A DNA stretch of 64,000 nucleotides from Nemertoderma westbladi. Its lineage: Eukaryota; Animalia; Xenacoelomorpha. This document shows positions 11,530 to 21,770 of this stretch, in pieces. A program made the translations under genes and the position numbers. The DNA is taken from assembly GCA_032718475.1 (NCBI GenBank), contig JAUCBJ010001398.1, positions 62,001 through 126,000 on the forward strand, written 5' to 3'. A model generated the notes under the pieces. That model was not told the DNA's origin. It did not search any database and saw nothing but the letters and a program-made list of their open reading frames with translations. Position 1 is the first letter of the stretch. Each line of letters starts with the position of its first letter.

Positions 11530-14500
11530 CCATCCGTTACTGGTCGTACTTCCCTACACCACCCACCTGCTCAGTAAGGAGTCCTACAGTCCTATGTTCT
11601 CCATCCGGTACTGGTCGTACTTCCCTACACCACCCACCCGCTCAGTAAGGCCATCCGGTACTGGTCGTACTTCCCTACACCACTCACCTGCTCAGTAAGG
11701 CCATCCGGTACTGGTCGTACTTCCCTACACCACCCACCTGCTCAGTAAGGCCATCCGGTACTGGTCGTACTTCCCTACACCACCCACCTGCTCAGTAAGG
11801 AGTCCTACAGTCCTATGTTCTCCATCGGAGTCCGGTACTGGTCGTACTTCCCTACACCACCCACCTGCTCTGTAAGGAGTCCTGCAGTCCTATGTTCTCC
11901 ATCCGGTACTGGTCGTACTTCCCTACACCACCCACCTGCTCAACAAGGAGTCCTACAGTCCTATGTTCTCCATCGGAGTCCGGTACTGGTCGTACTTCCC
12001 TACACCACCCACCTGCTCAGCAAGGAGTCCTGCAGTCCTATGTTCTCCATCCGGTACTGGTCGTACTTCCCTACACCACCCACCTGCTCTGTAAGGAGTC
12101 CTGCAGTCCTATGTTCTCCATGGGGGTCCGGTACTGGTCGTACTTCCCTACACCACCCACCTGCTCAACAAGGAGTCCTGCAGTCCTATGTTCTCCATGG
12201 GGGTCCGGTACTGGTCGTACTTCCCTACACCACCCACCCGCTCAGTAAGGCCATCCGGTACTGGTCGTACTTCCCTACACCACCCACCTGCTCTGTAAGG
12301 AGTCCTGCAGTCCTATGTTCTCCATGGGGGTCCGGTACTGGTCGTACTTCCCTACACCACCCACCTGCTCAGTAAGGAGTCCTACAGTCCTATGTTCTCC
12401 ATCGGAGTCCGGTACTGGACGTACTTCCCTACACCACCCACCTGCTCAGTAAGGAGTCCTGCAGTCCTATGTTCTCCATCGGAGTCCGGTACTGGTCGTA
12501 CTTCCCTACACCACCCACCTGCTCAGCAAGGAGTCCTGCAGTCCTATGTTCTCCATCCGGTACTGGACGTACTTCCCTACACCACCCACCTGCTCAACAA
12601 GGAGTCCTACAGTCCTATGTTCTCCATCGGAGTCCGGTACTGGTCGTACTTCCCTACACCACCCACCTGCTCAGTAAGGCCATCCGGTACTGGTCGTACT
12701 TCCCTACACCACCCACCTGCTCAGTAAGGAGTCCTACAGTCCTATGTTCTCCATCGGAGTCCGGTACTGGTCGTACTTCCCTACACCACCCACCTGCTCT
12801 GTAAGGAGTCCTGCAGTCCTATGTTCTCCATGGGGGTCCGGTACTGGTCGTACTTCCCTACACCACCCACCTGCTCAGTAAGGAGTCCTACAGTCCTATG
12901 TTCTCCATCGGAGTCCGGTACTGGACGTACTTCCCTACACCACCCACCTGCTCAGTAAGGAGTCCTGCAGTCCTATGTTCTCCATCGGAGTCCGGTACTG
13001 GTCGTACTTCCCTACACCACCCACCTGCTCAGCAAGGAGTCCTGCAGTCCTATGTTCTCCATCCGGTACTGGACGTACTTCCCTACACCACCCACCTGCT
13101 CAACAAGGAGTCCTACAGTCCTATGTTCTCCATCGGAGTCCGGTACTGGTCGTACTTCCCTACACCACCCACCTGCTCAGTAAGGCCATCCGGTACTGGT
13201 CGTACTTCCCTACACCACCCACCTGCTCAGTAAGGAGTCCTACAGTCCTATGTTCTCCATCGGAGTCCGGTACTGGTCGTACTTCCCTACACCACCCACC
13301 TGCTCTGTAAGGAGTCCTGCAGTCCTATGTTCTCCATGGGGGTCCGGTACTGGTCGTACTTCCCTACACCACCCACCTGCTCAGCAAGGAGTCCTGCAGT
13401 CCTATGTTCTCCATCGGAGTCCGGTACTGGACGTACTTCCCTACACCACCCACCTGCTTAGTAAGGAGTCCTGCAGTCCTATGTTCTCAATCCGGTACTG
13501 GTCGTACTTCCCTACACCACCCACCTGCTTAGTAAGGAGTCCTGCAGTCCTATGTTCTCAATCCGGTACTGGTCGTACTTCCCTACACCATCCACCTGCT
13601 CAGCAAGGAGTCCTGCAGTCCTATGTTCTCCATCCGGTACTGGACGTACTTCCCTACACCACCCACCTGCTCAACAAGGAGTCCTGCAGTCCTATGTTCT
13701 CCATCGGAGTCCGGTACTGGTCGTACTTCCCTACACCACCCACCTGCTCAGTAAGGAGTCCTGCAGTCCTATGTTCTCCATGGGGGTCCGGTACTGGTCG
13801 TACTTCCCTACACCACCCACCCGCTCAGTAAGGCCATCCGGTACTGGTCGTACTTCCCTACACCACCCACCTGCTCAGTAAGGAGTCCTGCAGTCCTATG
13901 TTCTCCATCCGGTACTGGTCGTACTTCCCTACACCACCCACCTGCTCAACAAGGAGTCCTGCAGTCCTATGTTCTCCATGGGGGTCCGGTACTGGCGTAC
14001 TTCCCTACACCACCCACCTGCTCAACAAGGAGTCCTGCAGTCCTATGTTCTCAATCCGGTACTGGTCGTACTTCCCTACACCATCCACCTGCTTAGTAAG
14101 GAGTCCTGCAGTCCTATGTTCTCCATCCGGTACTGGTCGTACTTCCCTACACCACCCACCTGCTCAACAAGGAGTCCTGCAGTCCTATGTTCTCCATGGG
14201 GGTCCGGTATTGGTCGTACTTCCCTACACCACCCACCTGCTCAACAAGGAGTCCTGCAGTCCTATGTTCTCAATCCGGTACTGGTCGTACTTCCCTACAC
14301 CACCCACCCGCTCAGTAAGGAGTCCTGCAGTCCTATGTTCTCCATCCGGTACTGGACGTACTTCCCTACACCACCCACCTGCTCAACAAGGAGTCCTGCA
14401 GTCCTATGTTCTCCATCGGAGTCCGGTACTGGTCGTACTTCCCTACACCACCCACCTGCTCAACAAGGAGTCCTGCAGTCCTATGTTCTCCATCGGAGTC

Positions 14501-20500: not shown

Positions 20501-21770
20501 TCCGGTACTGGTCGTACTTCCCTACACCACCCACCTGCTCAGTAAGGAGTCCTGCAGTCCTATGTTCTCCATCCGGTACTGGTCGTACTTCCCTACACCA
20601 CCCACCTGCTCAACAAGGAGTCCTGCAGTCCTATATTCTCCATGGGGGTCCGGTACTGGCGTACTTCCCTACACCACCCACCTGCTCAACAAGGAGTCCT
20701 GCAGTCCTATGTTCTCCATCCGGTACTGGTCGTACTTCCCTACACCACCCACCTGCTTAGTAAGGAGTCCTGCAGTCCTATGTTCTCCATCCGGTACTGG
20801 TCGTACTTCCCTACACCACCCACCTGCTCTGTAAGGAGTCCTGCAGTCCTATGTTCTCCATGGGGGTCCGGTACTGGTCGTACTTCCCTACACCACCCAC
20901 CTGCTCAACAAGGAGTCCTGCAGTCCTATGTTCTCCATCCGGTACTGGTCGTACTTCCCTACACCACCCACCTGCTTAGTAAGGAGTCCTGCAGTCCTAT
21001 GTTCTCCATCCGGTACTGGTCGTACTTCCCTACACCACCCACCTGCTCTGTAAGGAGTCCTGCAGTCCTATGTTCTCCATGGGGGTCCGGTACTGGTCGT
21101 ACTTCCCTACACCACCCACCTGCTCAACAAGGAGTCCTGCAGTCCTATGTTCTCCATCCGGTACTGGTCGTACTTCCCTACACCACCCACCTGCTTAGTA
21201 AGGAGTCCTGCAGTCCTATGTTCTCCATCCGGTACTGGTCGTACTTCCCTACACCACCCACCTGCTCAACAAGGAGTCCTACAGTCCTATGTTCTCAATC
21301 CGGTACTGGTCGTACTTCCCTACACCACCCACCTGCTTAGTAAGGAGTCCTGCAGTCCTATGTTCTCCATCCGGTACTGGTCGTACTTCCCTACACCACC
21401 CACCTGCTCAACAAGGAGTCCTGCAGTCCTATGTTCTCCATGGGGGTCCGGTACTGGTCGTACTTCCCTACACCACCCACCTGCTCAACAAGGAGTCCTG
21501 CAGTCCTATGTTCTCCATGGGGGTCCGGTACTGGTCGTACTTCCCTACACCACCCACCTGCTCAACAAGGAGTCCTGCAGTCCTATGTTCTCCATGGGGG
21601 TCCGGTACTGGTCGTACTTCCCTACACCACCCACCTGCTCAGCAAGGAGTCCTGCAGTCCTATGTTCTCCATCCGGTACTGGACGCACTTCCCTACACCA
21701 CCCACCTGCTCAGTAAGGAGTCCTGCAGTCCTATGTTCTCCATCGGAGTCCGGTACTGGTCGTACTTCCC
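11530..21770 (-). repeat. ~10.2 kb minisatellite (77/71/50-bp units) derived from the MCM3 exon 3 end plus 5' splice site
   Basis: Unit on - strand: GGGAAGTACGACCAGTACCGGACTCCGATGGAGAACATAGGACTGCAGGACTCCTTACTGAGCAG|GTGGGTGGTGTA, identical to the coding end of exon 3 ([22 protein letters not shown]) plus its donor. Confidence 0.97.

What the first reader, a model, noticed from the sequence alone, without database searches (positions are those of the whole stretch)
11530..21770. 10-kb array of exon-end + 5' splice-site copies filling MCM3 intron 3
Seen: the repeat unit is the last ~64 nt of MCM3 exon 3 ([22 protein letters not shown]) plus CAG|GTGGGTGGTGTA. The real exon end is the first unit, followed by roughly 140-150 copies (length-based estimate), each with an intact donor in near-native exonic context. 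Known: this intron splits the Arg codon of the SRF arginine finger, and MCM3 is essential. Inference: the spliceosome must pick the donor farthest from the acceptor out of ~145 near-identical ones. Reading past donor 1 hits TAG in frame (AGG TGG GTG GTG TAG), so any other donor gives a truncated, probably NMD-targeted transcript. This could be a copy-number rheostat on MCM3 output, a stepwise splicing substrate, or a natural test of first-come donor choice.
Basis: partly seen in the sequence, partly recalled or inferred. Interest (0 to 1): 0.88.

Follow-up and report, generated by a model that had tools for sequence, protein, structure and literature searches.

The report
Giant splice-donor repeat in MCM3 intron
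In an animal's DNA-replication gene MCM3, the end of one exon and its splice signal are copied 144 times into a 10-kb block inside the next intron, yet the assembled RNA uses only the first signal, so this is likely an unusually large but harmless example of a repeat type already known from human and lancelet genes.

Summary
The array is real: 144 complete units (77, 71, 76 or 50 nt) plus one partial, 11529-21770, 89% of MCM3 intron 3. Unit 1 is the true exon 3 end; all 143 later donors would give a stop after residue 477. Three DNA runs from two samples hold unit variants, and in one (a possible source) per-contig depth matches the window's copy numbers. Two spliced runs from two studies join donor 1, with its unique upstream sequence, to exon 4; no spliced contig carries another unit, though contigs drop rare and NMD-degraded forms. 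The layout is that of exon/intron-border minisatellites: human F7 IVS7, CBS, 6-16, LMNB2, PDGF and amphioxus 'mirages'. In F7, monomer number (1-12) did not change donor choice. The scan has reported this kind on other DNA before (up to about 63 units). What is new is size, in an essential gene. A copy-number rheostat is unsupported but not excluded. Verdict: new, extreme member of a known kind.

The parts
23344..24042 (-). MCM3 exon 1 (coding part; MCM_N, MCM_OB)
   Evidence: covered by spliced contig X4/17
22358..22705 (-). MCM3 exon 2
   Evidence: introns 1 (638 nt) and 2 (278 nt) skipped in X4 and X5
21706..22079 (-). MCM3 exon 3 (374 nt, P-loop domain), ending in AG of the SRF Arg474 codon
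   Evidence: 0 differences in X4 and X5 contigs
21694..21770 (-). Unit 1 of the array = true end of exon 3 plus first 12 intron bases; donor 1 (+1 at 21705) is the donor used
21693..21695 (-). In-frame TAG at intron +11..+13, reached by any transcript that reads past donor 1
11555..21693 (-). Units 2-144: intronic copies of the exon end plus donor (77, 76, 71 or 50 nt), 143 pseudo-donors
11676..11725 (-). Unit 142, the only copy with a consensus-matching donor CAG|GTGAGT (+1 at 11687)
11529..11554 (-). Partial last unit without a donor; array boundary, same in DNA runs X1 and X2
10229..11523 (-). Unique AT-rich remainder of intron 3 (about 1.3 kb) with the acceptor at 10229
9283..10228 (-). 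MCM3 exon 4 (coding part; MCM_lid, WH_MCM3_C), starting with G of Arg474
   Evidence: joined to donor 1 in X4 and X5

Best explanation
The block is a minisatellite of 144 copies of the MCM3 exon 3 end plus its donor, the spliced RNA seen joins only the first donor to exon 4, and the other 143 donors are likely ignored because the first is the one met first and lies nearest the upstream acceptor, which would make the array a near-neutral passenger. Shown: anatomy, presence in two DNA samples, donor-1 junction in two spliced runs, a stop in all alternative products, block duplications and reshuffled unit variants. Inferred: a first duplication by slippage between look-alike sequence in the exon and at the intron start; growth by unequal exchange in a genome region rich in long minisatellites; first-donor choice by cross-exon definition and 5'-to-3' order; removal of rare mis-spliced RNA by nonsense-mediated decay.
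For: Spliced contig X4/17 (3150 nt, depth 596.3) runs exon 1-2-3 with no other letters to 21704 and continues into 10197-10226, the start of exon 4; X5/18 (depth 20, same sample as DNA runs X1 and X3 that carry the array) does the same. Both carry the unique exon sequence upstream of unit 1, which no other unit has. On 21660-24150 X4 laid 1 record and X5 2; none is a unit variant. F7 minigenes with 1-12 monomers used only the most upstream donor (PMC1557585); exon-defined minigenes with two equal donors used the upstream one exclusively (PMC9225289 Results part 1); amphioxus mirages did not disturb splicing by RT-PCR (PMC3087553 passages). Turnover signs: identical runs of up to 9 units against at most 5 in 1000 shuffles, and all four combinations of the two commonest variant pairs at 13-16 copies each. 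Ten long tandem arrays cover about 21 of the window's 64 kb. 104 of 144 units no longer encode the native peptide.
Against: Contig assembly removes minor branches and steady-state RNA hides degraded forms, so a minority use of other donors is not excluded (tool caveat). The mechanistic papers are on mammalian cells and at most 12 monomers; this animal's lineage and splicing mode were not determined. X4's sample has no DNA run here, so its array is unverified. Six of 11 recurrent substitutions are synonymous against 22-28% expected (p 0.017-0.055), which is more than plain drift predicts and needs the added step that variants entered from the selected exon. In F7 a perfect CAG/gtgagt pseudo-site took 70-90% of splicing; unit 142 has that sequence.
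Confidence: 0.8

Rival explanations
1. Copy-number rheostat: longer arrays divert more transcripts to downstream donors (or slow splicing), these carry the stop at codon 478 and are degraded, so array length tunes MCM3 output.
For: 143 of 143 alternative products have a premature stop 58 nt or more before the junction, so leakage would be hidden in steady-state RNA. 6-16 and CBS use the next one or two pseudo-donors (PMC1557585 Introduction). An intronic VNTR in TERT shifts splicing and NMD with length (PMC11830802 abstract). Unit depth relative to unique DNA differs between runs (X1 about 0.22 of X2), compatible with length alleles.
Against: No spliced contig with another unit. Monomer number did not alter donor choice in F7. 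Two runs of one sample (X1, X3) differ about fourfold in unit depth (1756.9 against 458.3), so length polymorphism is not established. No canonical three-tier G4 motif in the array. Even if leakage exists, adaptive use would be a further step with no evidence.
Confidence: 0.1
2. Stepwise (recursive) splicing: each unit's CAG|GT serves as acceptor and regenerated donor, so the 11.5-kb intron is removed in pieces; any such step would rebuild the same exon-3 junction and be harmless.
For: 127 of 144 units have the CAG|GT juxtaposition; the final mRNA would look the same as direct splicing, so the RNA contigs cannot exclude it.
Against: The 20 nt before a unit's CAG are 55% pyrimidine and 25% G, against 60-75% and 5-10% at the gene's three true acceptors; before the unit's TAG 35% and 50%. 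CAG|GT is simply the native exon end; all three introns of the gene sit in that context.
Confidence: 0.04
3. The array, or most of its length, is an assembly or amplification artefact, or the expressed MCM3 is an array-free copy.
For: X1 and X3 show much lower unit depth than X2.
Against: Six of 7 listed X2 unit contigs have depth ratios 35.0, 20.2, 29.6, 29.4, 29.2, 19.0 against 31.1, 20.2 or 19.3, 31.5, 30.3, 28.0, 19.5 predicted from the window. A second sample with a different 5' haplotype (15-nt deletion at 24104) has several unit variants above unique depth and the same array boundary. Flanks on both sides have matching single-copy depth (24.6-28.7), no other letters in the exons, and no DNA run shows an intronless junction.
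Confidence: 0.06

Closest known systems
Human F7 intron 7 37-bp VNTR (Borensztajn et al. 2006, PMC1557585; parts 1, 3 and 4 of 6 read)
   Same: First unit spans the exon-intron border; donor repeated in the intron; only the most upstream donor used; even the intron bases +1..+6 are the same (GTGGGT).
   Different: 5-9 copies of 37 bp with 4 exon bases, against 144 copies of 50-77 bp with up to 65 exon bases; mechanism tested there, not here; MCM3 is a core replication gene.
Human 6-16 (25 pseudo-sites), CBS IVS13 (15-20), LMNB2 (100 bp x 10-15), PDGF intron 4 (81 bp x 16-18), as listed in the Introduction of PMC1557585 (primary papers not read)
   Same: Same layout; LMNB2 and PDGF have similar unit lengths and use only the authentic donor.
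   Different: About 6 to 14 times fewer copies; 6-16 and CBS also use two further donors, which was not seen here.
Amphioxus 'mirage' minisatellites (Adh3, globins BflGb6, BflGb9; Ebner et al. 2010, PMC3087553; abstract and 6 passages read)
   Same: Tandem duplications of exon/intron borders in an invertebrate, units of variable length, no effect on splicing seen, turnover by unequal exchange proposed.
   Different: Few units (3-6 in BflGb6); length instability shown there, not established here.
TERT intron 6 VNTR6-1 (Florez-Vargas et al. 2025, PMC11830802; abstract only)
   Same: Long intronic VNTR in a proliferation gene; model for a length-dependent splicing/NMD effect.
   Different: Described as acting through G-quadruplexes rather than repeated donors; the effect is measured there and unmeasured here.

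Membership tests
Exon/intron-border minisatellite (F7-type VNTR, 'mirage') | Head-to-tail array of 10-160-bp units | tested here: met
   144 units of 50-77 nt
Exon/intron-border minisatellite (F7-type VNTR, 'mirage') | First unit spans a real exon-intron border and the donor is repeated in the intron | tested here: met
   Unit 1 = 21694-21770, donor at 21705 confirmed by spliced contigs; 143 further donors
Exon/intron-border minisatellite (F7-type VNTR, 'mirage') | Mature RNA mainly uses the most upstream donor | tested here: met
   2 of 2 spliced runs; minor forms not measurable from contigs
Exon/intron-border minisatellite (F7-type VNTR, 'mirage') | Internal turnover: variant units, block duplication, reshuffling | tested here: met
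   Runs of 9 and 8 identical units against at most 5 in 1000 shuffles; four-way variant combinations
Exon/intron-border minisatellite (F7-type VNTR, 'mirage') | Copy number varies between alleles | tested here: inconclusive
   X1 about 0.22 of X2, but X1 and X3 of one sample differ fourfold
Recursive splice sites (features recalled) | Strong pyrimidine tract before AG|GT | tested here: not met
   55% pyrimidine, 25% G before unit CAG
Recursive splice sites (features recalled) | Splicing intermediates, saw-tooth nascent coverage | not testable with these tools
   Only contigs of two spliced runs available
Length-dependent regulatory VNTR (TERT VNTR6-1 type) | Splicing or expression changes with allele length | not testable with these tools
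   No allele-resolved DNA and RNA
MCM3 | MCM_N, MCM_OB, MCM, MCM_lid and MCM3 winged-helix domains; best hits named MCM3 | tested here: met
   (59-63% identity over the full length to the 12 best of 120 hits)

The most novel reading that the evidence does not exclude
At 144 units the first-donor rule becomes leaky, so array length sets the share of MCM3 transcripts lost to the stop at codon 478, a heritable dial on replication licensing; and because unit 1 is coding, exchange with the array keeps rewriting codons 453-474, with 104 of 144 units able to damage the arginine-finger segment, so the gene would live under a self-made mutational load.
Probability: 0.1. Interest if true: 0.75.

Novelty: new member of a known kind. 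Interest (0 to 1): 0.3.

Why it matters
It extends the first-donor rule from arrays of 5-26 copies in the papers read to 144 copies over 10 kb in an essential gene, with the array making up 69% of the coding span of the gene. Unit-specific variants and one consensus-perfect donor 10 kb downstream make it a ready-made ruler for how far and how strictly donor order beats proximity to the acceptor and donor strength. If leakage scaled with length it would be a simple dosage dial on a replication factor; the present data give no sign of that.

Tried and rejected
Whole-genome survey for further exon-border arrays: no genome is held. Run search listed no holder on record as RNA; X4 and X5 were taken as RNA only because they skip introns exactly at GT..AG. 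Lack of spliced-run cover over most of unique intron 3 is not used as evidence. Length polymorphism from depth: rejected as unresolved (X1 against X3). One of 7 listed X2 contigs (6-nt-gap class, ratio 29.0) was dropped because the script's proxy occurrence was unrepresentative (13.3); contigs were matched to variant classes only by number of differences, and 37 pieces were not shown. Age of intron 3: 73 of 80 metagenome MCM loci with full 3' matches read straight through SRF (7 with short matches left out), but these are uncharacterised and many may be transcripts, so no conclusion. Units as mini-exons (TAG|G acceptor to donor): 64, 58 or 37 nt, never frame-preserving, and no acceptor tract. 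G4 switch: no canonical motif, maximum window score 1.36, below 1.76 at the start of intron 1; folding with G4 allowed gave none. Literature: 'MCM3 + intron + minisatellite' gave one unrelated paper (listing only); an intron-gain search gave none; the library lacks most subscription papers, so absence from print is not shown. Scan notes: none for this genome; sequence look-up gave two unrelated notes.

Full report
Observation. The minus strand carries a four-exon MCM3: 24042-23344, 22705-22358, 22079-21706 and 10228-9283, 788 residues with no internal stop. Pfam gives MCM_N, MCM_OB, MCM, MCM_lid and the MCM3 winged helix in order. The 12 best of 120 fetched homologues are 59-63% identical over the full length; the named hits are animal MCM3 proteins. 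The lineage was not determined. Intron 3 is 11477 nt and splits Arg474 of SRF as AG|G. That this Arg is the arginine finger is recalled knowledge; all 120 homologues have the SRFD motif.

Anatomy. There are 144 complete units and one partial unit over 11529-21770, which is 89% of intron 3. Lengths: 68 of 77 nt, 50 of 71, 21 of 50, 5 of 76. Unit 1 is the real exon end plus 12 intron bases; 5 other units are identical to it. Donors: 127 CAG|GTGGGT, 14 CGG|GTGGGT, 2 CAG|GTGGAT, 1 CAG|GTGAGT in unit 142. About 1.3 kb of unique intron with a normal acceptor follows. Use of any of donors 2-144 gives a stop after residue 477, 58 to 10126 nt upstream of the junction; that such RNA is an NMD target rests on the recalled 50-55-nt rule, untested in this animal.

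Is it real? Eight runs were listed, five hold the stretch, all as contigs, none on record as RNA. X1, X2 and X3 behave as DNA. X1 and X2 are flagged as possible sources. For 6 of the 7 listed X2 unit contigs, depth over unique depth is 35.0, 20.2, 29.6, 29.4, 29.2 and 19.0, against 31.1, 20.2 or 19.3, 31.5, 30.3, 28.0 and 19.5 predicted from the window's 31-mers. Matching was by number of differences, 37 pieces were not shown, and the tool warns that depth is no copy number, so this is a rough check. Sample S1 differs from the window by a 15-nt deletion at 24104, yet holds several unit variants and the same array boundary. Its unit depth is about 0.22 of X2's in X1 and a further fourfold lower in X3, so allele length and library bias cannot be separated. 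No DNA run shows an intronless junction or a second gene copy.

Which donor is used? X4 (study P3) and X5 (study P1, the sample of X1 and X3) skip introns 1 and 2 at GT..AG, so they are read as RNA. X4 contig 17 (3150 nt, depth 596.3) and X5 contig 18 (840 nt, depth 20) match exon 3 without a difference to the donor and continue into exon 4. Laid from the exon 4 side, the same contigs carry donor 1's own letters and then the unique exon 3 sequence at 21771. On the exon 3 side X4 laid 1 record and X5 2, none a unit variant; on the exon 4 side X4's other listed records are short matches within the unique part of intron 3. Donor 1 is thus the dominant form in 2 of 2 spliced runs. Contigs drop rare branches and steady-state RNA hides degraded forms, so minor leakage is not measured.

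How it arose (inferred). The exon just before unit 1 and the intron start share 7 of 8 bases in register, enough for a first slippage duplication. The G-rich intron start looks native: intron 1 begins with 16 of the same 18 bases. Later growth left identical runs of 9 and 8 units, against at most 5 in 1000 shuffles, and the two commonest variant pairs occur in all four combinations at 13-16 copies, which points to exchange between units. Ten long arrays cover about 21 kb of the window, so expansion is not special to MCM3. Seven of 17 exon-frame substitutions are synonymous, 6 of the 11 seen at least twice, against 22-28% expected (p 0.017-0.055; all 17: p 0.054-0.16). The likely reason is that some variants came from the selected exon itself and record its older alleles, a reading shared with scan note e1-7880682 and untested here. 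The copies are not kept as coding: only 40 of 144 encode the native peptide, 16 carry a stop, 14 change the catalytic Arg codon.

How it likely works. In human F7 the first unit of a 37-bp VNTR spans the exon 7 border; only the most upstream donor is used, with 1 to 12 monomers and with pseudo-sites up to consensus value 91; only perfect sites competed, taking 70-90% (PMC1557585, parts 1, 3, 4 of 6). With long flanking introns and equal donors, the donor nearest the upstream acceptor is favoured, exclusively so in minigenes (PMC9225289, abstract and Results part 1 of 2). Here donor 1 closes a 374-nt exon, donor 2 one of 445 nt, and so on, and the units lack acceptor tracts, so they cannot easily be defined as exons. 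Transfer of these mammalian results to this animal is inference.

Comparison. PMC1557585 also lists 6-16, CBS, LMNB2 and PDGF arrays of 10-26 units (primary papers not read). Amphioxus 'mirages' are the invertebrate case (PMC3087553, abstract and passages). A human catalogue of splicing-associated repeats (PMC10078293, 12 passages) and TERT VNTR6-1 (PMC11830802, abstract) show that intronic repeat length can shift splicing by other routes. No supplements were read. The scan's own index lists 20 findings with these words in at least 13 genomes; the 8 shown have 6 to about 63 units and mostly the same verdict; these are unchecked notes. I found no paper on an MCM3 array and no larger donor array in searches, which cover only the open library.

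Verdict. A real and very large exon/intron-border minisatellite, about six times the largest copy number in the papers read, in an essential gene, with first-donor splicing intact. Known kind, extreme member; regulatory role unsupported, about 10%.

Noticed in passing
window 11676-11725 (-): Unit 142 carries the only consensus-perfect donor, 1.46 kb from the acceptor; in F7 such a site out-competed the first donor. It is a single copy and may be absent from the samples behind the RNA runs.
   Followed up: partly
window 23329-23346 and 21691-21708 (-): The starts of MCM3 introns 1 and 3 share 16 of 18 bases including a G-rich run; intron 1 has no array.
   Followed up: partly
window 24104-24118: 15-nt indel upstream of the MCM3 start codon: in the window and X2, absent in X1, X4 and X5.
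   Followed up: no
window 26595-28332: 20-bp x 87 array inside what looks by eye like an intron of a peptidase-like gene, ending about 30 nt before an acceptor; not exon-derived by eye.
   Followed up: no
window 38972-41601: 27/54-bp array rich in CCAAT-like motifs, split by an unrelated insert of about 590 bp at 40108-40695.
   Followed up: no
window 42124-43629 (-): Open frame of 501 residues made of 120-nt and 42-nt repeats, Ser/Thr/Ala-rich then Glu/Pro/Lys-rich; mucin-like by eye.
   Followed up: no
window 49353-50286: Near-palindrome: arms of about 455 bp, 93% alike, 25 bp apart; possibly a foldback element.
   Followed up: partly
window 50795-52030, 54157-57889, 63647-64000: Further long minisatellites (27-bp, 21-bp x 173, 55-bp running off the window end).
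   Followed up: no
window 43884-46031 (-): Broken frames resembling a retrotransposon polyprotein by eye.
   Followed up: no
window 753-1799 (+) and 4111-4857 (-): Last exons of a LIM-type homeobox gene with a short coding 21-bp repeat, and an intronless short-chain dehydrogenase; both named by eye from recalled motifs.
   Followed up: no
window 10650-10780 and 11280-11375: Short pieces of dispersed repeats in the unique part of intron 3 (raised depth and loose ends).
   Followed up: no
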